Source of the DNA: Lama glama
Taxonomy: Eukaryota
DNA: 64,000 bases
Reading direction: 5' to 3'
NCBI GenBank assembly: GCA_028534125.1
Contig: CM052816.1
Span: 4,590,001 to 4,654,000 of the forward strand
Below, one piece after another: positions 10,310 through 46,700 of the stretch. Position 1 is the stretch's first letter. Each line of letters begins with the position of its first letter. Position numbers and translations under genes: made by a program. The notes beneath the pieces are model-generated. The model saw nothing but the letters and a program-made list of their open reading frames with translations, ran no database searches and had not been told where the DNA came from.

Positions 10310-11300
10310 GAAGGCAGAACAGTATGGTAGGTAAGATCATGGCTTTGAAAACATACAGACTTGGGCTTTATGTCAAATACTGGCTCTGCCAGTTACTGGC
10401 TGTGTGATCTTAGGCATGTTGCTCAGTCTCTCTGTTTCCCTTCTCATGAGGCCTAAATAAGATCATGTACATGAAGTGCCTTACACAATGCCAACTACAC
10501 AGTAATCACTAAACAAATAGTAACTATTACTGTTGATATTATAATTATTTATTATTTTTAGTGCTAGTAATGGTGGTAGGTACTAACTGCAATTACTGTG
10601 CTAAACATTCAGGATGCAAAATGGAATATGGTACAAATCTTGCCCTTGGAGTTGCAGACAACAACCATTCAGAATTTTGATAGGTGTCAAACAAAGGATA
10701 CCAGACACAAACACTCTGGAGTCCAGGGATGAGAGAGAGAACCATGAACGTGAATGGTTGGGGAAGATTCTACTGCCTGAAAACTACTGTAAGTAAAATG
10801 TATAAAATATAAGTTAATGTATTACTGTTCCTATCTCTGTCAGCAAACATTCATGGAAGCAAATTTTAAAATATGGGCTGTAACCAAAGGATAAATGCTG
10901 GAGAGGGTGTGAAGAAAAGGGAACCCTCCTACACTGCTGGTGGGAATGTAGTTTGGTGTAGTCATTACGGAGAACAGTTGGGAGATTCCTCAAAAGACTA
11001 AAAATAGACTTACCAAATGATCCAGCAATCCCACTCCTGGGCATATATCCTAAGGAAACTGTAATTCAAAAAGATATATGCACCTCAATATCCACAGCAG
11101 CACTATATGCAATAGCCAAGACGTGGAAGAACCTAAGTGATAAGCCAGACAAATTCCCCATTTTACAGATGGAGAAACTGAAACCCCTTTAGAGAAGAAG
11201 CTTGCCCAGGTCGCACAACGAGCCACTGGAAAATTGGGGGTGAGAAAGCTGTTTGAAGCTTCGGAAGCCTGAGGCTTCTGTTTCCATTCCAAAAGGAGTA
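10310..11300. mobile_element. MIR (10310-10550), L1 ORF2 fragment (~10891-11136, plus) and a second MIR piece
   Basis: MIR core TGGCTCTGCCAGTTACTGGCTGTGTGATCTTAGGCA; L1 ATAAATGCTGGAGAGGGTGTGAAGAAAAGGGAACCCTCCTACACTG; MIR CCCCATTTTACAGATGGAGAAACTGA. Confidence 0.8.
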
Positions 11301-37871: not shown

Positions 37872-40800
37872 TTCTAGAGAGACCCTGAAGAGCAAACTCT
37901 CTTACAGGTGGATTTCCTGGAAAGCAGACTCTGAGATAGAAATTAGCACATAAGAGGTTTAGGAAGATAAGTTCTTGGGGTCAACACCGTTGGAAGGGCA
38001 GGTAGCAAGACTGGGCAAGGCAGGAAGCTGAGCTGTGATGCAGCCCCATTAAAAGTCTCAGTCAATGACTCTTCAGAGTTGTACCAGACTATGAGTAGGG
38101 GGCCAAGCCTTTATACCCCTGCCAACTGGTCATTGGAGAGAGTCCATCCCGAGAAAGGGACATGATCTTGGGCAAGGAGGAGCTCTTCAACTGGGGCAAC
38201 TCCTGTAGCAACTGGCAGCTTGCAGAGATCCCAATAGCTGGAATGGATGCTCTTCAGAAAGCACCCTATCATCCATCTCCCTCGGGATTTTGCTCTCTTT
38301 TCATAAAGCAACAGTTTGTTTCAGGTCAATGTTTCAACTACATGAAATACTTATCTTAAGAGTTTCTAACATCACCACAGCCAGATTTAGAAAATCCTAG
38401 CATCTCAGCATATTCCCCAAATCTCTCTCTAAAGGAACATAGAGAAAAGTCAGATCATTCTGGTTCACTGCTTTTCTTATGTTCCTTCCAAACTCCAATC
38501 TCTGGTGGACAACAGTAGAAATATGGGTAGGGGTCATAAAGGAGTCATGCTCAAAGTTTATTTAAGCCATTACTTAAAGTCTACCCCAAAGAGGGCAAGT
38601 TTTTGGTGACCAAGTTATATTACTGTGAGCTCTACTGGTAACAAGTCTGGCTCTCAAATGCTACTTCATAGATGGAGGGCAGGGAAAAATCCCAGGAAAG
38701 GAAAGGCACTGCAGGATGTCCTCCAATATTAAAACAAGAAATGTGCTTTAGTGGATTTAGTGTATTCAGTCATATCCAAAGTTTTCCATTATAAAAAGAA
38801 CTGAGATACATGAAGTTGAGAGCCAGGCTAGGTTATTTCTAGGAAGTTTTCCAACTGAGAGTGTAAGATTCCAAGGGACCCAATCGGGTCTTCAGCTTTT
38901 TACAAACTTCAGTTTCACTAACTGCACACACTTTAAAGAACTACATTGAAGCTGACCTTTGTCAATAAGCCAGTGCACAACCCGCAGTCAAAATGCATTG
39001 AGTGGTTTCATAGCAATAGCTGGGGCTGATTGGCAGAGTGAGCTACAGGATATATCCTATGCCCCTCAAGAAATCAATCCAGGGGTGAAGACAGCCTCAG
39101 GGTTTTGAGGGTGGTTCTTAGCAGGATGGGACTAGAATGCCTGGATTTTCTGGTGGAAAGAAGAGAGAGCTGGATTTGCACAGCCCGGGGCCTGAGACTT
39201 TCCTTGTGGGCTTTACTTTCCCAGTGACAAAATGAAGGAAAGGATCCAAAGGAACTTCAGGCTTCCTCTGAGCTCCAACATTCCATAACTAAAATGTAAA
39301 CTAGGTCCAGTAATTTGCCTGCCATCTGTGCCCCCCACAGAATTAAACCAAAGAGAAACTATCAAAGAAATGTCCAAGCAAACATGTAATTTGTCTTTGG
39401 ATAGACAGCAAGCTACTACTGAGAGGACAATGTTTTCCTCAAGTGGCTCTCCAAGAGAGTCAGAATTTCACCTCATTAAGACTTTGGGTCAGACACAGAC
39501 AGGAGAGAAGCTATTCCTCATTAACACAAGCTGTGGCATTCTTCACAAAAGACCTTGAAAAGAATACAGACCCCAAGCTCTACGGAAAGTTTATCATCTT
39601 ATCTAGTGTTAAATCAACTGAGTAAAGTCTGTGGTCTGGAAAAAGTCTACATTAGCATGCAGATAAAGATGGAATCAAAACTATTTACAGATAAACTAAG
39701 TCAGAAAATCTGCAATGGTCAAAGAGACACAATACTTTTAAGTCACTTAAGCCTAGCACCAAACTGGCCAAATGCTACTAGCCAACGTCTAGAAACTCAT
39801 TACCTACTGCTTCTAATAATGTAGTTGGCTCTTCTGGCCCCTGAGGTTTCTAACTGAGCATCAGTTTGCATTTCAACTACTGAGACACTGAGACATCTGC
39901 AGGTGTATCAGAAGAAAGAAACCTTGATAGATTGTGCAGATGAGCTGCACTTCTTCATGTTAGGGTCCACAAGGGAATCATCTGTCCTGTGTACCAGTGT
40001 TGCCTAGGATCATCTTACCACCTCTTACATGCAAAAATAAAAATCACCTGAGAAATCAGATATGTTGAAAAAGAAAAAGAGAAAGGATGAGGGGGAAAAG
40101 TAGCAGAACACAGCCAGGATGCACATTACAGCTGTCTGTTTACTTTAATTGAATGGGTTGTGTCTTCAGGCAATCTCATTATTCTCCCTGGAGCAGGAGT
40201 GCTGAATGAAGGCACAAACCTCATTAACCTTTGAATGTAAGAATCAATAATCTGCAATAAATCTAAGCTAATTTGCTGCCAATAAATCTCCCAGAATGCT
40301 GTGTTTTGTAGCTGGGGACATTGGAGAGTATGGTAAGTTCTGTGTCTACATCAAGATGGCATCTGGGGCTTACTTTGTTGGTTTTTAAGACCTTCTAACG
40401 TAAAACAATTTATTGACATTTACACAGAACGCAGTTTTCCAGTGGGCTTAATTATCTGTTTTTTCAGTTGAGAACACAATGGGACCTTTTCTCTTTCTAT
40501 GACTGTTTCTAATAAATGACATGGATAAAGAGAAACAGGCAGGTGTCCACCTGGCAGTTCTTTCTCATATCACTGCCCTGAAAAGTAGGAACAGAGCCCA
40601 TACCGAGAAACTGGGAAGAGGTTCCTTGAGCCTACAACTGGCTTTACTCTGTGACTAGCACATAGTAGGTACCTAAAAAATATTTGTTGAAAGAATAAAT
40701 GATAGCCATGACCTTTGAGAGTCAACTTTTGCTTGCTAAATATATATATATATATTCACTATATATATGTGTCATATATACAGATGTATATGAATACATA

Positions 40801-41789
40801 TGTATATATGTACACACATACATATATAAAATGTCTGAGCAAGAGTGGGATACTTGTAAAAAAGTATCTTGTAAAAAAAAAAGAAATGGAACAATAAAGT
40901 ATTTACTAGTATTTACTAGTTTACTAGTTACAGAGAAGTGATTGAGAAACAGGATGACAAGAAAACAAAAAGGACCATGAGTCGATGCTACAATGAAAAC
41001 TCCAAGAAAGCAGCCTCTCTGTGGTGTTCACCACTAAGTCATAGCGCCTGAAACAGTGCCTGGGATAAAGCAAGTACCTGACAGGGGTTTGACGGCTGAA
41101 TGGACGGACGCATGCATGAACGCATGGATGGGTGGGTAAACAGCTGAGGAGGTACTTTCTATGATTAGGAGAAGCAGGAGAGCAGCTGTGAGCTTTCTGC
41201 GAATGGTCTCCATGGAGAGCAGAGCTCTGTAGACTAAAGCAACATCCCGCCCCTGAGCACACATACAAGGGACCAGCTTCCCTTTCCCTAATCAAGGGAA
41301 GCAGAAAAGGTGAAAGGTGTGGAGCAGCTTCACATTTGCACCACATGTCAAATGGGGGTGACAGTTACAGCACCTTTGTCATGGGAGTGTTCAGAACAGA
41401 GCCAGGCCCCAGGTAAGTGCACGCTAAGACTTACTGTTACTATTCCTGTATCAAAGGGATCGAGGGTAATCTTGGAAAAAGAGACATCGCCTTGCCTTCT
41501 TGGCGCTTAAAAATAGCAGGAAAAGCAGGCAGTAAGCACAATCTCTCAACAACGTATTAACTAAATTCAAGTGTGAGAGGGCTGACAGCGAGAACTGCCG
41601 GGGGTCATCAGCATGCACGAGACCATGGTCCCCGCAAGGATCCGTCAGAACTGCGCTACCCAAGGCAGGACGTGTTTGGCAAACATCAGGGGGTGTGTCT
41701 GCAGCCGATGCCAACTGACAGGGGCTTGACTTCAAGAATATACCACCGGCCCCTTCAACTAAATAACACACAAAAAACCAAACAACCCA

Positions 41790-42610
41790 GTCGAAAAACC
41801 GGCAGACGTTGTTTCTCAGGGGGCGTCGGCGGGCGCTGTCTCAGCGGTGTCCCCCACGCCTTTCCCAGCGTCTCCATGAGGAACCAACCGCCAGAGCCGA
41901 GGCGCGGCGTCGAGCCGAGCTGGTCTGAGGAAATGGCCGCCGCCGGGCGTTAGCTCACCCGCGCGCGCTCGCGGCCCCGCGCCGACCCCCCAGAGCCATG
42001 AGTTACGGTCGCCCGCCCCCCGACGCGGAGGGCATGACCTCCCTCAAGGTGGGCAACCTGACCTACCGCACCTCGCCCGACACCCTGAGGCGCGTGTTCC
42101 AGAGGCACGGGTGCATCGGCGACGTGTACATCCCGCGGGGACGCCACACCAGGGAGTCCCGGGGCTCCGCCTTCGTCCGCTTCCACGACCAGCACGACGC
42201 CGAGGACGCCATGGACGGGGCCGTGCCGGACGGCCGCGAGCTGCGAGTGCAGATGGCGCGCTGCGGCCGCCGCCGCCAGGGACGCCCGCCCCGCCGGCAC
42301 GGGGGCGGCGGCCACGCACGTCGGAGCCGCAGCCCCGGGCGGCGGCGTCGCAGCCGGTCCCGCTTCCGGTCCCGGTCCCGGTCCCGGTCCCGGAGTCGAT
42401 CCCGCTACAGCCGCTCCAAGTCCCGCTCTGGCACTCGCTCAAGATGGCGATCACCCTCCAAGTTCAGATCCGCGCGATGGTGCAAGTCCAAGTCCAAGTC
42501 CAAGTCCTCCTCAGTCTCCCGATCTCGCTCGCGGTCCAGGTCCAGGTCTGGGTCCAGGAGTCCTCCACCCGTGTCCAGGAGGGAATCCAAGTCCAGGTCG
42601 CCTTCCAAGA
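41790..42610. promoter_or_regulatory. CpG island carried by the SRSF2 retrocopy
   Basis: Very GC-rich and CpG-dense ~800-bp stretch (e.g. GCGCGCGCTCGCGGCCCCGCGCCG) in an otherwise CpG-poor, AT-rich window. Confidence 0.85.
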
Positions 42611-43744
42611 GTCGCCAAGTCTCCTGAAGAGGAAGGATTGGTGTCCTCTTAAGCAAATGATGTGTTGTCCCCAAGCAACATGAAGGAAGACTTGGGGGGA
42701 AAGGACCAAGTACTCAGTCCGTCGAAGAGTCCTTGGAACAAGCAACTGGCTATTGAAAAGGTTATTTTGTAACATTTTGTCTAACTTTTTACTTGTTTTA
42801 AGCTTTGCCTCAGGTGGCAAGCTCATTTTATGTGCCATTTTGTTGCTGTTATTCAAATTTCTTGTAATTTAGTGAGGTGAACGACTTCAGATTTCATTAC
42901 TGGCTTGGATATTTGAGGTAAAATTTCCTTTTTGTTTATATAGTGCTGACTTTTTTTTTTGTTTGAAATTAAACAGATTGGTAATCTAATTTGTGGCCTC
43001 CTGACTTTTAAGGAAACGTGTGCAGCCATTACACACAGCCTAAAGCTGTCAAGAGGTGGACTCAACATTGCCTTCATACCTTAAAATTAAAAACGTACAA
43101 AAGTTGGTGTAAATTTGTTTGTATATGTTATTTACCTTCAGGTCTAAATGGCAAACTGAACCCAAATTTGTATAAAGACTGCAGGTGAAAAGAGTTGTTT
43201 TTTTTTTTTTCCTTAAAGGATTGTTCACCAAACACAATTCTAATCTCTTCTGTTATGTATCTTTGTGCACTAGATGCAGTTGGGTAGCAGTTGAGTAATG
43301 CTGGTTAGCTGTTAAGGTGGCGTGTCGCAGTGCAGAGTGCTTGACTGTTTCCTGTTTTCTCCTGATCGCTCCTGTGTAAAGATGCCTTGTCGTGCAGAAA
43401 CAAATGGCTGTCCAGTTTATTAAAATGCCTTACAACTGCACTTCCCGTCACCCGGGCCTGGCATATGAATAACGGAACATACAGTGAGCACATCTAGCGA
43501 TGATAAATACACCTTTTTTTTTCTTCCTCTTCCCCCTCCCCCAAATGGTAAATTTGAACATCTTCATGTATGAACTTAAAATATGGAAAATGTTAAGGAA
43601 GCAAACAAATGGTTTTGTAACTTTGTAAGTACTGATAACATGATGCATTTTTTTTCCTCATGAATATTCTGTACTCTAACCATTGTTTCTGTAGTTTAAT
43701 TAAAACGTAATCTTGGTGTTAGCTTTTCTCAGAAAAAAAAAAAA
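41808..43744 (+). pseudogene. SRSF2: Full-length processed copy (retrocopy, possible retrogene) of SRSF2/SC35 mRNA
   Basis: Begins GTTGTTTCTCAGG (matches the recalled SRSF2 5'UTR start). The intronless ORF reads [41 protein letters not shown] followed by an RS domain. Parental exon junctions are fused at 42332/42333 and 42659/42660. A ~1.1-kb SRSF2-like 3'UTR follows, then ATTAAA at 43699-43704 and poly(A) at 43733-43744. The TSD is AAAAA[C/T]CGGCAGAC at 41794-41807 and 43740-43753. Confidence 0.97.
41998..42627 (+). CDS. SRSF2: Open reading frame of the SRSF2 retrocopy: 209 aa, diverged RRM plus RS domain, C-terminus frameshifted; expression unknown
   Basis: ORF track. Start context is GAGCCATGA and there are no internal stops. 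A 2-nt loss near 42613-42616 replaces PPKSPEEEGAVSS with RQVS-stop. The ancestral TAA is still visible at 42650-42652. Confidence 0.45.
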
Positions 43745-46700
43745 TCGGCAGACCTAAACACACATTCCCTCAAAGAAGACATACAGAAGCCCAATAGGCA
43801 CATGAAAACATGCTCAACACTGCTAACTATCAGAGAAACGCAAATCAAAATTACAGTGAGATATCACCTCACACTGGTCAGAATGGCCATCGTTAAAAAG
43901 TCCACAAACAATAAACGCCGGAGAGGGTGTGGAGAAAAAGGAACCCTTCTACACTGTTGATGGGAATGCAAATTGGTTCAGCCAGAATAGAAAACAGTAT
44001 GGAGATTCCTTAAAAAACTATAAATAGAGTTACCATATGATCCAGCAATCCCACTCCTAGGCATATATCCAGAGAACAATTCAAAAAGTTACATGCACCC
44101 CAATGTTCATAGCAGCACTATTTCCAAAGCCAAGACATGGAAGCAACCTAAATGTCCATGGACAGATGACAGGATAAAGATGTGGTAAAATTATACAATG
44201 GAATTCTACTCGGTCATAAAAAATAATAATGCCATTTACAGCAACATGGATCGACCTAGAGATTCTCATACTAAGTGAAGTCAGTCAGACAAAGACAAAT
44301 ATCATATGATATCACTTATATGTGGAATCTGAAAAAGCAAGACAAATGAACTTATTTCCAAAACAGAAAGAGATTCACAGACATAGAAAACAAACTTACG
44401 GTTACCAAAAGGGAGAGGGGTGGGAAAAGATAAATAGAGAGTTCGGAATTAGCAGATACAAACTACTATATACAGAACAGATAAACAGCAAGATCTTACT
44501 GTATAGCATAGGGAACTATACTCAACAGCTTGTAATAACCTATAATGAAAAAGAATATATATAAATGTATAACTGAATCACTATGTTGTACACCAGCAAC
44601 TAATACAAGATTGTAAATCAACTATACGTCAATTAAAAACCAACCAACCAAAAAAAAAAAAAATGGGGTAACAAGGAGACTCCCAGATTCCGGGAGTCTT
44701 AATTTCAAGATTCCAAGGCAGGTTCTTCCCCTTCCTGAATTGCAGTTGCCCCACCTCGAAAAGAGGGGGCATGGCTGAGATGATTCCACAGGCCCTGCCA
44801 GCAGAGGCAGAACAGTGGGACACCCCAGGGGGAAGCTTTGCAGAGACGAGTGCACAAGAGCCGGGCTGTGAAAGCCAGGGGCTCCAGCCAGGAAGGGAGG
44901 AGAAAAGAAAGCAGGGCACCAGGGGTCAAAACCAATTTTCCTCTTGCCAAAGTTCATCTTGGCCCTGCAGATATAAGGCTTTGGTCGAAGGCATTCTTCT
45001 CAGAAATTGTGCTCCTAAGAAAGAGTGACGGTAAAAAAAAATACAGCCACGTGATACATGGGGGATATGACACCTGGCTTACTGTTCCGGTCTATGGACA
45101 CAGAGAAGTGCTGGTTCTCACGTTGCCATACGTAATGGCAAATCAGGTGAGAAACAAAGGGAGGGAAAGGAGAGGGGAAGTGAGAAGGAGGTCCAAAGAT
45201 GGGGTGGGGATAAGAGAGGAGGAAGAAAATACAAGGAGGTGAATCAACTGAAAGTTGGAGGGTTGCCATCAGAACACGGAGTTTCCAATTCCAAAGCTCA
45301 CTCACCGCTGCTCTTTCTCTCCCCATCTCTCCACCTGCTCAACTTAGACTCCATTTTAACTACATTAAAGGACCTTTCAGTGCCTTCCTCTCTCCTCGTG
45401 TATTTCCTGAGTAGCAATAGTAGATGAATGACAAGAACTACCAACCTACTCCCAAGGTAAAGACGAAACTGCTTTTATGTGAGTGAGAACAATGTTTAGA
45501 TTGACCTGTCTGCCTACGTGAACTCTTTTCTGTTATAAACATCACCTCGAGCCGGAAAGAGAAAACAAAGGGTAGAAAGATGAACTGTTAAGAGCCCACT
45601 TCATTTTGCAGATGGAGAGAAAGGGGCCCCAAAAGAGTGGTGACTGGAACAGGGTCGCTGAGCAAGGAGGTGGCAGGGCTGAGAACCGTGTACAAGTCCC
45701 CTGTCAACTAATCCTAGTGAGACAGGCACAAGGACACAAGGGAATGTTTTGGATTTTAACAATTACATACACACTGCAATAGGTATTAGTAAAATCCGCA
45801 TGTGGCATCCATGATGTGGGGGGCATCACAGCTTAGAGTGAAGCTAAATTACCTATCTCTGTTTAAAATATGAATCAATTTAAGGCACAATACTGGGTAT
45901 AATGGAACCCTTGATATGGGTAACCAATAGCTCCTGACCAGATCTCAGACTGTTGCCAGAGACTATGCTTTTGGTCCTTCAGTAAGAAAAAATAAAATAA
46001 AAATGACAACAAAATCCATCCAGCTTGCAAACCTCCAAGCATCCTCTGAAAAGTCAAACAGCTCACCTTGCGGTGTCTCCTGCCCTTCCCCGAGTGAGCC
46101 CGGGAAATGAGAGTCGGGTGTTCAAAGGAGTCAGGCAAGCATAATATTATATATACACTCCACATCCATCTCCTGAATGAAAACTCATTGTTCCTGTGTA
46201 ACCAAAAGTAAATATTTACCGTGAGCCAGGAAAGGTAGGGAATGATCAGCATTCGGGCCATCAATCACTGTGAGCCTTGCTCCTGTTTTAACAACCCTTG
46301 TACGGGAGGGCAGGCAAGGACGGCAAAGACTGGCCGGGAGATAAGAGTTTGTCAGAGGCATCAAATCGCTCGAAGCAGAGGAATATAGGGTGAGTTGTTC
46401 ATGCATGTAGGCTGTGAAGGGCTCTGAAGATGTTTTTACAAAGTTAAGGCAGGAAGGCAGAATGGTTAGCAACGGCCTCTGTAGCTGGACCACCAGCTCC
46501 TTGGCTGACCAGCTGTGGGAGCTTGGGCACAGCGATTCCAGCTTCACCTGGGAAGTGGGGAGGGCATACAAGATCCACTCTTTAGGGCTGCTGTGAGGAT
46601 TAAATGAGTCAATACCGGCAAAGCATTTTTTAACAGTAGTGGGAACATAGAAAGTGCTCAATAAGGATCGTACTGGGGTCAGAAGACAGAAGCCTCCCTT

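What the first reader, a model, noticed from the sequence alone, without database searches (positions are those of the whole stretch)
41000..43930. SRSF2 retrocopy sits at the centre of an A/T->G/C substitution peak: candidate retrocopy-seeded recombination/gBGC hotspot
Seen: relative to the recalled, near-invariant mammalian SRSF2 protein, 13 amino-acid changes in residues 1-123 are weak->strong. These are V10A, D19G, K36R, Y37H, Y50H, K52R, F57S, K65Q, L80P, Y92C, Y110H, Y115H and R123G. Only 4 are strong->weak (R39C, V40I, R66H, R103Q, all at CpG), although the sequence was already GC-rich. The bias extends beyond the retrocopy. The two TSD copies differ by T->C in the upstream one. The host L1 reads ATAAACGCCGGAGAG (43911) where the L1 copies at 10891 and 2243 have AAATGCTGGAGAG. 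The L2 tail at ~41090-41137 reads GGAC/GCAT/GGGT instead of (GAAT)n. Established: processed pseudogenes normally lose CpG and GC, gBGC at recombination hotspots produces kb-scale W->S peaks, and PRDM9-independent hotspots form at unmethylated CpG islands. Inference: the retrocopy imported a CpG island that stayed hypomethylated in the germline and attracted recombination, remodelling itself and its flanks.
Basis: partly seen in the sequence, partly recalled or inferred. Interest (0 to 1): 0.8.

Follow-up and report, generated by a model that had tools for sequence, protein, structure and literature searches.

The report
GC-gaining SRSF2 retrocopy CpG island
A dead, intronless copy of the splicing-factor gene SRSF2 has kept its CpG island and, with the DNA next to it, has gained G/C bases far faster than it lost them, which is the footprint expected of recombination-driven GC-biased gene conversion at an unmethylated island.

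Summary
Window 41808-43734 is a full-length processed SRSF2 retrocopy with 14-bp target-site duplications, inserted in a 5'-truncated L1. I polarised it against the genome's own SRSF2 gene.

- **GC-rich 5' part (41808-42660):** 41 of 268 A/T sites changed to G/C, but only 19 of 567 G/C sites changed to A/T. Equilibrium GC (GC*) is 0.87 with CpG sites masked. CpG density is kept (106 CpGs against 115 in the parent).
- **AT-rich 3'UTR:** 24/680 against 10/380.
- **L1 flank just upstream (about 97 bp):** 12/60 W>S. None of 29 other L1 copies reaches 12 (mean 3.1, maximum 7).
- **Downstream L1:** a weak excess in the first 220 bp, and background beyond 43956.
- **Control:** an older SRSF2 retrocopy elsewhere in the genome shows the normal opposite pattern.

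The best explanation is GC-biased gene conversion at a germline-hypomethylated, retrocopy-derived CpG island. This kind of PRDM9-independent hotspot is already described in most placental mammals.

"Seeded by the retrocopy" has only weak support (upstream against downstream L1 flank, p=0.055). S>W changes are not depressed, so simple constant gBGC does not fit. This is an instructive instance of a known process.

The parts
41045..41115 (+). L2-like 3' tail inside the upstream GC shoulder. It is GC-enriched relative to a sister tail at 40641-40711.
   Evidence: Local alignment score 46 against a shuffle maximum of 40 (0/500 reach it). 18 sites are W in the far copy and S in this copy, against 3 the reverse. 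Not polarised.
41000..41712 (.). Upstream shoulder of single-copy DNA with raised GC and CpG.
   Evidence: GC 0.51 and CpG o/e 0.43. This compares with 0.357 and 0.13 for 40000-40999, and 0.397 and 0.22 for the whole window. No other copy was found in the genome search. It is not detectably L1. Substitutions could not be polarised.
41551..42600 (.). The only CpG-island-like stretch in the 64-kb window. It begins about 250 bp upstream of the retrocopy.
   Evidence: All 17 of the 200-bp windows with GC>=0.55 and CpG o/e>=0.6 lie between 41551 and 42600.
41713..41807 (+). 5' piece of the host L1 (a 5'-truncated L1 3' end), including the upstream TSD at 41794-41807.
   Evidence: Aligned to 29 spanning L1 copies. 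W>S 12/60, S>W 2/31. Controls average 3.1 W>S with a maximum of 7, and 0/29 reach 12. L1 start taken.
41808..41997 (+). Retrocopy 5'UTR, starting at the parental transcription start.
   Evidence: Alignment to parental exon 1. W>S 13/58, S>W 6/132.
41998..42627 (+). Retrocopy ORF of 209 aa (parent 221 aa). It has 30 changed residues, four in-frame indels and a 2-bp deletion that shifts the frame near the C-terminus.
   Evidence: Exon 1 part: W>S 18/96, S>W 6/238. Exon 2 part: W>S 10/97, S>W 5/181.
42628..43734 (+). Retrocopy 3'UTR, with the 3'UTR intron spliced out. It shows a mild W>S bias.
   Evidence: For 42661-43734: W>S 24/680, S>W 10/380, GC* 0.57-0.59. Polarised with the older copy C37: 17 W>S against 5 S>W.
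43733..43753 (+). Poly(A) remnant (43733-43744) overlapping the downstream TSD (43740-43753).
   Evidence: Read from the sequence and the alignment end.
43754..44660 (+). 3' piece of the host L1. There is a weak W>S excess in the first ~220 bp and background beyond.
   Evidence: 43756-43975: W>S 11/122, S>W 7/80. Controls average 5.4 W>S and 2/29 reach 11. 43956-44650 is the same as 26 control copies.

Best explanation
A full-length SRSF2 mRNA, from the isoform with the 3'UTR intron removed, was reverse-transcribed into an L1 fragment. It carried in about 850 bp of the parental CpG island.

The copy decayed as a gene. RNP-1 residue F57 became S, there are 30 residue changes, and the C-terminus is frameshifted. 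Its CpGs, however, stayed unmethylated in the germline.

An unmethylated, promoter-like island can serve as a PRDM9-independent site for meiotic double-strand breaks. Repair of the resulting heteroduplexes favours G/C alleles (GC-biased gene conversion).

Over the copy's lifetime (about 4% divergence in its 3'UTR) this fixed A/T>G/C changes 4-6 times faster across roughly 41700-42400. The effect spilled into the upstream L1, and probably a further ~700 bp upstream. It tailed off through the 3'UTR to background about 200 bp into the downstream L1.

Shown here: the anatomy, the polarised substitution bias, its spatial profile, and CpG retention.

Inferred: hypomethylation, recombination, gBGC as the cause, and the retrocopy as the trigger.
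For: 1. Polarised bias. Island W>S 41/268 against S>W 19/567. GC* is 0.87 (95% CI 0.76-0.97) with CpG masked over 41808-42400. The comparison values are 0.59 in the 3'UTR, about 0.32 in the L1 controls (0.047 and 0.100 per site) and 0.25-0.40 in the older C37 retrocopy.
2. The changes are derived in the retrocopy. The parent protein matches solved SRSF2 wherever compared over residues 1-96. Where C37 is informative and agrees with the parent, the counts are 22 W>S against 9 S>W in the island and 17 against 5 in the UTR.
3. The pattern looks like a fixation bias. Both strands and both substitution classes are hit, and isolated changes show it as well, 24:4.
4. It is not confined to the retro-transcribed DNA. 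The upstream L1 has 12/60 W>S and 0/29 controls reach that (binomial p=5e-5 against the control rate).
5. It is localised. W>S per W site is 0.20-0.24 for 41808-42407, 0.07 for 42408-42607 and about 0.035 in the UTR. The L1 beyond 43956 is at the control level.
6. CpGs are kept. There are 106 CpGs (o/e 1.01) against 115 (1.10) in the parent, while the C37 copy fell to 47 (0.76).
7. Sequence context alone gives less. In C37 the ratio of W>S per site between the GC-rich part and the UTR is 1.56; here it is 4.33.
8. Literature.
- GC* peaks at hypomethylated, PRDM9-independent hotspots occur in most of 52 placental mammals, are sharpest within about +/-200 bp, and are absent in human and mouse, where such sites do not recombine (PMC11161765, abstract and Results read).
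- In humans, mutation around transcription starts gives a net loss of G/C (PMC13712754, abstract and section 6, part 1 of 2).
Against: - Non-CpG S>W is not reduced in the island (9/357 against 7/358 in the UTR). Constant gBGC strong enough for the W>S excess (B about 4.3) predicts a ratio of 0.06 against the observed 1.29. The fit needs either a roughly 2-3-fold higher mutation input or episodic activity. S<>S changes are 15/567 against 3/380, p=0.05.
- About 11 of the 78 island differences have the C37 state equal to the retrocopy state. These may be changes on the parental lineage.
- There is no direct evidence for recombination, methylation state or allele-frequency skew.
- The upstream shoulder 41000-41712 could not be polarised, so a GC-rich neighbourhood that predates the insertion is not excluded.
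- The older SRSF2 retrocopy on C37 lost GC, so importing this island is not sufficient by itself.
- A PRDM9-like locus is present (an open SSXRD exon and an open zinc-finger exon). CGI hotspots are therefore not the only option in this species.
Confidence: 0.55

Rival explanations
1. The gBGC is real, but the hotspot predates the retrocopy. The mRNA copy landed in or beside an existing recombination-active, GC-rising patch (41000-41800) and was remodelled like any other DNA there. The retrocopy is a passenger, not the seed.
For: - The GC and CpG shoulder reaches about 800 bp upstream of the insertion.
- The L2-like tail at 41045-41115 is already GC-enriched (18 against 3).
- The W>S domain is roughly symmetric about the retrocopy's 5' end rather than about the island's middle.
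- The downstream L1 flank also shows a small excess (11/122; 2/29 controls reach it).
Against: - Before the insertion the two L1 flanks were contiguous, so they should carry equal pre-insertion excess. The upstream piece has 12/60 and the downstream piece 11/122 (p=0.055).
- The excess in the upstream flank (about 15 points over controls) matches the excess accumulated by the retrocopy island since insertion.
- The only CpG-island-like stretch in 64 kb coincides with the retrocopy.
Confidence: 0.17
2. This is a mutational bias, not a fixation bias. Unmethylated, very GC-rich or germline-transcribed DNA here has a raised A/T>G/C mutation rate, from repair or transcription-associated synthesis, that does not depend on meiotic recombination.
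For: - S>W is not depressed as gBGC predicts.
- S<>S changes are about 3-fold higher in the island (15/567 against 3/380, p=0.05), which suggests a raised mutation input.
- The older C37 copy also shows a 1.56-fold higher W>S rate in its GC-rich part.
- Substitutions are clustered. For example, there are 6 within about 17 bp at codons 35-40, and 6 within about 12 bp in the upstream L1.
Against: - In humans, mutation at transcription starts and CpG islands gives a net G/C loss (PMC13712754, section 6, part 1 of 2).
- GC* is not raised at hypomethylated default-hotspot loci in human and mouse (PMC11161765 Results).
- All four W>S classes are raised on both strands, which no single known polymerase or editing signature gives.
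- The context effect measured in C37 is too small (1.56 against 4.33).
Confidence: 0.15
3. Selection is responsible. The copy is, or was, a working intronless gene or regulatory island, and higher 5' GC content was favoured, for example for nuclear export of an intronless mRNA.
For: - A 209-aa ORF is open.
- There are fewer nonsynonymous codons than random placement of the same spectrum gives (28 against 35.4, P=0.009).
- Retrogenes are reported to have higher 5' GC than their parents, which has been read as selection for export (background passage of PMC11323403).
Against: - The bias extends into L1 DNA upstream of the transcribed copy.
- Residues that match solved SRSF2 in the parent are altered, including F57S and D19G. 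Their assignment to the RNP-1 and RNP-2 motifs is recalled. The C-terminus is frameshifted.
- An open frame is expected by chance in 51% of simulations.
- Synonymous changes on the parental lineage can explain the nonsynonymous deficit.
- No near-identical annotated protein was listed (best identity 80% among the 120 listed of 592 hits).
Confidence: 0.06
4. It is an artefact, from mis-polarisation (the parent changed, or the source was a different allele or paralogue), misalignment in the RS repeats, or assembly error.
For: - 11 of the 78 island differences have the outgroup state equal to the retrocopy.
- Hexamer repeats expanded at 42354-42393 and 42483-42507, and these make some columns ambiguous.
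Against: - The non-repetitive 5'UTR plus exon 1 alone gives 31 W>S against 12 S>W (p=8e-16).
- The parent protein matches solved SRSF2 wherever compared.
- The L1 flank result does not depend on the parent gene.
- 14 DNA runs from 7 coded studies hold 0.74-0.82 of the stretch's sampled words.
Confidence: 0.03

Closest known systems
PRDM9-independent ('default') recombination hotspots at germline-hypomethylated CpG islands, with gBGC (GC*) peaks. Sources: Joseph et al. 2024, PMC11161765 (abstract and Results read). Dog studies PMC3861134 and PMC4350167 (search listing only).
   Same: There is a sharp kb-scale peak of equilibrium GC centred on a CpG-rich stretch that appears to be unmethylated, decaying into the flanks. 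A PRDM9-like gene is present in the same genome.
   Different: - Those hotspots are mostly ancient promoters shared between species. Here the island arrived by retrotransposition.
- Their signal is an average over thousands of loci. This is a single locus with no recombination or methylation data.
- S>W is not depressed here.
Processed pseudogenes used as neutral probes of GC-content evolution, and their usual decay.
   Same: This is an intronless, polyadenylated, TSD-flanked copy that can be compared with a conserved parent to read off substitution rates.
   Different: The usual outcome is loss of CpG and GC. The same genome's older SRSF2 copy on C37 shows this (S>W 0.25-0.32 per site, CpG 115 to 47). 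This copy went from GC 0.685 to 0.702 and kept its CpGs.
SRSF8 / SRp46, the primate SRSF2-derived functional retrogene (PDB 2DNM 'SRp46 splicing factor' was hit; its history is recalled).
   Same: It is an SRSF2 retrocopy with an open RRM-plus-RS reading frame.
   Different: Here F57 and D19 (RNP-motif residues by recall) are altered and the C-terminus is frameshifted. No expression or orthologue evidence was obtained, so this copy most likely does not function as a protein.
Episodes of gBGC that drive amino-acid change, such as mouse Fxy in the pseudoautosomal region, and biased clustered substitutions in accelerated regions (recalled). Rodent episodes: PMC12290510 (search listing only).
   Same: There are clustered W>S substitutions, many of them nonsynonymous, in an otherwise conserved protein sequence.
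   Different: Those cases hit functional genes. Here the target is an apparently unconstrained copy, so the pattern can be read without selection confounding it.

Membership tests
Processed (L1-mediated) retrocopy of SRSF2 | Collinear with the spliced parental mRNA and lacking introns. | tested here: met
   Three parental exons on C24 join without introns in the window.
Processed (L1-mediated) retrocopy of SRSF2 | A 3' poly(A) tract and flanking target-site duplications. | tested here: met
   A-run at 43733-43744. The 14-bp TSDs at 41794-41807 and 43740-43753 are 13/14 identical, and the host L1 continues across them.
Processed (L1-mediated) retrocopy of SRSF2 | Loss of coding function (pseudogene). 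| tested here: inconclusive
   F57S, D19G, 30 changed codons and a 2-bp frameshift near the C-terminus. A 209-aa ORF remains, and nonsynonymous changes are somewhat fewer than simulated (28 against 35.4).
GC-biased gene conversion tract or hotspot | A polarised excess of W>S over S>W substitutions relative to background. | tested here: met
   Island 41/268 against 19/567, with GC* 0.87. L1 controls about 0.32 and C37 0.25-0.40.
GC-biased gene conversion tract or hotspot | The bias does not depend on strand, on transition or transversion class, or on functional category, and it extends into adjacent unrelated DNA. | tested here: met
   A>G 10, T>C 18, A>C 8, T>G 5. Upstream L1 12/60, with 0/29 controls reaching it.
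GC-biased gene conversion tract or hotspot | kb-scale localisation with decay to background. | tested here: met
   W>S per W site is 0.20-0.24 (41808-42407), then 0.07, then about 0.035 in the UTR. L1 beyond 43956 equals the controls.
GC-biased gene conversion tract or hotspot | A matching reduction of S>W fixation. | tested here: not met
   Non-CpG S>W is 9/357 in the island against 7/358 in the UTR. Constant gBGC predicts a ratio of 0.06 and the observed ratio is 1.29.
GC-biased gene conversion tract or hotspot | Raised recombination and a skew of derived G/C alleles to high frequency. | not testable with these tools
No recombination map is available.
PRDM9-independent CpG-island hotspot | Germline hypomethylation of the island. 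| tested here: inconclusive
   The evidence is indirect. There were 10 CpG transitions at 210 CpG-site positions, CpG o/e is 1.01, and 12 W>S changes lie in a CpG context in either sequence. No methylome is available.
PRDM9-independent CpG-island hotspot | DSB, DMC1 or H3K4me3 signal at the island in meiotic cells. | not testable with these tools
   No such data can be reached from here.
PRDM9-independent CpG-island hotspot | The species uses default hotspots (PRDM9 absent, or coexisting with default hotspots). | tested here: inconclusive
   A PRDM9-like locus has an open SSXRD exon (66.6 bits) and an open 251-aa terminal exon with zf-C2H2_5 plus C2H2 fingers. The KRAB and SET exons and the full finger array were not examined.

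The most novel reading that the evidence does not exclude
A retrotransposed mRNA created a new PRDM9-independent recombination hotspot by importing an unmethylated CpG island into AT-rich L1 DNA. gBGC from that hotspot is now enlarging the island outward: CpG-island criteria are already met about 250 bp into the flank, and GC is raised for about 750 bp. If so, retrocopies of CpG-island genes are natural insertion experiments. They would show that hypomethylation alone is enough to found a hotspot, and that CpG islands can grow by gBGC.
Probability: 0.35. Interest if true: 0.65.

Novelty: new member of a known kind. Interest (0 to 1): 0.45.

Why it matters
A conserved parent gene gives an unusually clean ancestral state, so this locus shows base by base what happens to an imported CpG island. 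It kept its CpGs and gained GC instead of decaying, and it changed its neighbours too.

If the cause is recombination at the island, the locus is a dated natural experiment. It would bear on whether a new hypomethylated region is enough to found a PRDM9-independent hotspot, and on how far gBGC spreads from one. Published work infers this only from genome-wide averages.

The locus is also a warning for annotation. An open 209-aa SRSF2-like frame with many radical changes here reflects GC-biased drift, not adaptation.

My literature searches listed no paper that links retrocopies to hotspot birth. In one search the word 'retrocopy' occurred 0 times in all 15 listed papers.

Tried and rejected
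- **Read laying.** This leaves no polymorphism, cross-species or expression evidence.
- **Sequencing-run search.** The different coded organisms (A-E at 0.74-0.82, I at 0.38) could not be compared.
- **Orthologous proteins.** None of the 120 listed hits (of 592) exceeds 80% identity, and that identity is over less than half of the query (the RRM end). Only 8000 candidates were scored, so this is weak evidence of absence.
- **L1 further upstream.** 41000-41690 scores 13 against the L1 majority, while shuffles give 11.5 +/- 1.3. It is not detectably L1, so it was dropped from the polarised counts.
- **First L1 control set.** Many of the 26 copies are truncated at the insertion point, which inflated the control rates upstream. 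I replaced it with 29 spanning copies. L025 and L038 (duplicates) and L023 (contains N) were dropped.
- **Fuzzy motif search for L2 tails.** The search timed out. blastn-short then found no usable further tails in the window.
- **RNA editing or reverse-transcriptase error.** Rejected, because both strands and the flanking L1 are affected.
- **Earlier notes of this scan.** None exist for this genome.
- **PRDM9 status.** Only part of the locus was fetched, because 10 kb was returned where 20 kb was asked for. The question is left open.
- **Literature on PRDM9 in camels.** Nothing useful was listed.

Full report
**What is there.**
Window 41808-43734 is a full-length processed copy of SRSF2 on the + strand.
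- A search of the window's own genome found the parent on contig C24 in three pieces. These match retrocopy positions 9-558 (81% identity), 529-860 (86%) and 867-1935 (95%).
- The pieces are parental exon 1, exon 2 and a third exon wholly in the 3'UTR, with GT-AG borders. The copy therefore derives from the isoform with the 3'UTR intron removed.
- It starts at the parental transcription start, about 30 bp after a TATAAA box in the parent, and ends in an A-run (43733-43744).
- It is flanked by 14-bp target-site duplications at 41794-41807 and 43740-43753. They differ at one base.
- The host is a 5'-truncated L1 3' end, made of 41713-41807 plus 43754 to about 44660.
- The DNA upstream of 41713 is not detectably L1. 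The genome search found no other copy of it.

**Check of the observation.**
- The ORF 41998-42627 encodes 209 aa against 221 in the parent.
Four further changes in residues 1-123 were missed (E35Q, D48G, P105R, G116A).
- The parent's residues 1-96 match the solved SRSF2 RRM (2LEA) wherever I compared the printed alignment by eye, so these changes are derived in the retrocopy.
- In the GC-rich 5' part (41808-42660; 835 aligned sites) there are 41 W>S changes at 268 W sites, 19 S>W at 567 S sites (10 of them CpG transitions at 210 CpG-site positions), 15 S<>S and 3 W<>W.
- In the 3'UTR (1060 sites) there are 24/680 W>S and 10/380 S>W.
- W>S per site is 4.3-fold higher in the island than in the UTR (odds ratio 4.9, p=1.5e-9). 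S>W per site does not differ (p=0.57).
- With CpG contexts masked, GC* is 0.87 (95% CI 0.76-0.97) for 41808-42400 and 0.59 (0.39-0.83) for the UTR.
- The bias is not carried by a few complex events. Among substitutions more than 3 bp from any other change or gap, the island has 24 W>S against 4 S>W and the UTR has 18 against 5.

**Controls.**
1. An older SRSF2 retrocopy on C37 (69% identical) shows the ordinary fate. S>W is 0.25 (GC-rich part) and 0.32 (UTR) per site, against W>S of 0.17 and 0.11. CpGs fell from 115 to 47.
2. Using C37 as an outgroup, the differences where C37 agrees with the parent are 22 W>S against 9 S>W in the island and 17 against 5 in the UTR. In 11 of the 78 island differences C37 agrees with the retrocopy instead, so those may be parental-lineage changes.
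3. A short third fragment on C17 is unremarkable (15 W>S, 10 S>W in 315 bp).
4. The island is the only CpG-island-like stretch in the 64-kb window. All 17 qualifying 200-bp windows lie in 41551-42600.

**Flanks.**
I aligned the host L1 to L1 copies from the same genome and scored each copy against the majority of the others.
- *First control set.* This had 26 copies. Three of 29 were dropped: two duplicates and one with N. It showed that the host L1 beyond 43956 is like the controls (for example, 43956-44155 has 3 W>S and 4 S>W). Many of these controls were truncated at the insertion point, however.
- *Second control set.* I built a set of 29 copies that span the insertion point.
- *Upstream L1 piece* (about 97 bp touching the retrocopy's 5' end): 12 W>S at 60 W sites and 2 S>W at 31 S sites. 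Controls average 3.1 W>S with a maximum of 7, and none of 29 reaches 12. The binomial p against the pooled control rate of 0.052 is 5e-5.
- *First 220 bp of the downstream piece:* 11/122 W>S against a control mean of 5.4. Two of 29 controls reach 11, and three of the 11 host states are shared by 7-9 other copies. This excess is weak.
- *Coordinates.* Upstream coordinates printed are about one base low after a dropped insertion. Checked against the ruler, the TSD change is at 41799.
- *Further upstream.* 41000-41712 has GC 0.51 and CpG o/e 0.43, against 0.36 and 0.13 in the kb before it.
- *L2-like tails.* The tail at 41045-41115 aligns significantly with a sister tail at 40641-40711 (0 of 500 shuffles reach its score). 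The two differ at 18 sites that are W in the far copy and S in the near one, against 3 the reverse. This fits a W>S domain reaching about 750 bp upstream. It is unpolarised, and the AT-rich ancestral form of the L2 tail is only recalled.

**Mechanism.**
- *Signature of gBGC.* The pattern has several features of GC-biased gene conversion. All four W>S classes are raised on both strands (A>G 10, T>C 18, A>C 8, T>G 5). It disregards coding constraint, extends into unrelated flanking DNA, and is confined to 1-2 kb.
- *CpG retention.* This points to germline hypomethylation since the insertion.
- *Published support for hotspots at such islands.* Joseph et al. (PMC11161765; abstract and Results read) report that hypomethylated CpG-island-like loci act as PRDM9-independent hotspots with GC* peaks in most of 52 placental mammals, including species with intact PRDM9. 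The peak is sharpest within about 200 bp. Human and mouse, where such sites do not recombine, show no GC* peak.
- *Published evidence against a mutational cause.* Qiu et al. (PMC13712754; abstract and section 6, part 1 of 2) find that mutation around human transcription starts gives a net G/C loss. Together these argue against an intrinsic W>S mutational bias of unmethylated islands.
- *Context effect.* The effect measured in the C37 copy (1.56-fold) is also too small to explain 4.33-fold.

**What does not fit.**
- Non-CpG S>W is not lower in the island (9/357) than in the UTR (7/358).
- A constant gBGC that gives the W>S excess (B about 4.3 relative to the UTR) predicts an S>W ratio of 0.06, and 1.29 is seen.
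- A raised mutation input of about 2-3-fold would reconcile the two. S<>S changes are 15/567 against 3/380 (p=0.05), though some of them lie in expanded hexamer repeats at 42354-42393 and 42483-42507. Episodic hotspot activity would also reconcile them.
- The explanation therefore needs either mutagenic recombination or an on-off history. Neither was shown.

**Was the hotspot seeded by the retrocopy?**
- Before the insertion the two L1 pieces were contiguous, so any earlier hotspot should have marked both equally.
- The upstream piece, adjacent to the island, has 12/60 W>S. The downstream piece, now about 1.1 kb from the island, has 11/122 (Fisher p=0.055).
- The excess in the upstream piece over controls (about 15 points) equals the excess the retrocopy island accumulated since its insertion.
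- The host L1 is about 10.5% diverged from the majority (98/929 scored sites), against 4.0% for the retrocopy 3'UTR. There was therefore ample earlier time.
- This favours activity mainly after the insertion, but only weakly.
- The C37 copy shows that importing this island is not sufficient.

**Is it a gene?**
- The copy carries F57S and D19G (RNP-motif residues by recall), 30 changed codons, and a 2-bp deletion that replaces the C-terminus.
- An uninterrupted frame is expected in 51% of simulations with the observed spectrum.
- Nonsynonymous codons are fewer than simulated (28 against 35.4, P=0.009). Synonymous changes on the parental lineage can account for this.
- No near-identical annotated protein was listed.
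- I read it as a pseudogene. Past function is not excluded.

**PRDM9.**
The genome has a PRDM9-like locus with an open SSXRD exon and an open 251-aa zinc-finger exon. Completeness was not determined, so the species may use both hotspot types.

**Not obtained.**
This leaves no polymorphism, cross-species or expression data.
- Fourteen DNA runs from seven coded studies hold 0.74-0.82 of the stretch's sampled words, which argues that the sequence is not an assembly artefact.

**Verdict.**
The gBGC-at-a-CpG-island reading is the best available and matches a known, widespread process. The claim that the retrocopy founded the hotspot is plausible but unproven.

Noticed in passing
window 42652-42662; parent L007 (minus strand) exon 2/3 junction: The retrocopy lacks a roughly 1-kb intron that lies wholly in the parental 3'UTR. 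It was therefore made from the 3'UTR-spliced SRSF2 isoform. By recall, that isoform is the autoregulated, decay-targeted one.
   Followed up: partly
G000:C37:22370190-22371846 (L008) and G000:C17:32638590-32638909 (L009): There are two more SRSF2-derived copies in the genome. One is an old, near full-length retrocopy (69% identical, GC and CpG decayed). The other is a 0.3-kb 3'UTR fragment (about 90%).
   Followed up: partly
window 42354-42393 and 42483-42507: Hexamer arrays (CCGGTC x6.7 and CAAGTC x4.2) in the RS-domain region are expanded by 6 and 12 bp relative to the parent. All four indels upstream of the frameshift are multiples of three.
   Followed up: partly
window 40740-40929: A (TA)n-rich microsatellite and short AT-rich tandem repeats sit exactly where the upstream GC shoulder ends (GC 0.26 here against 0.52 from 41000).
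   Followed up: no
window 44700-44899: A short GC-rich patch (GC 0.53-0.63) with low CpG (o/e 0.14-0.22) lies just past the 3' end of the host L1. Its nature was not examined.
   Followed up: no
L090:725-1702 (-), i.e. G000:C35 about 26874700-26875700: Retroviral gag-like open frames (Gag_p30, Gag_MA) lie downstream of the PRDM9-like zinc-finger exon, about 12-25 kb from the contig end. Only noted.
   Followed up: no
L090:9048-9800 (-): The terminal exon of the PRDM9-like gene is open for 251 aa, but Pfam finds only about three C2H2 fingers. The array may be short or collapsed in the assembly.
   Followed up: no
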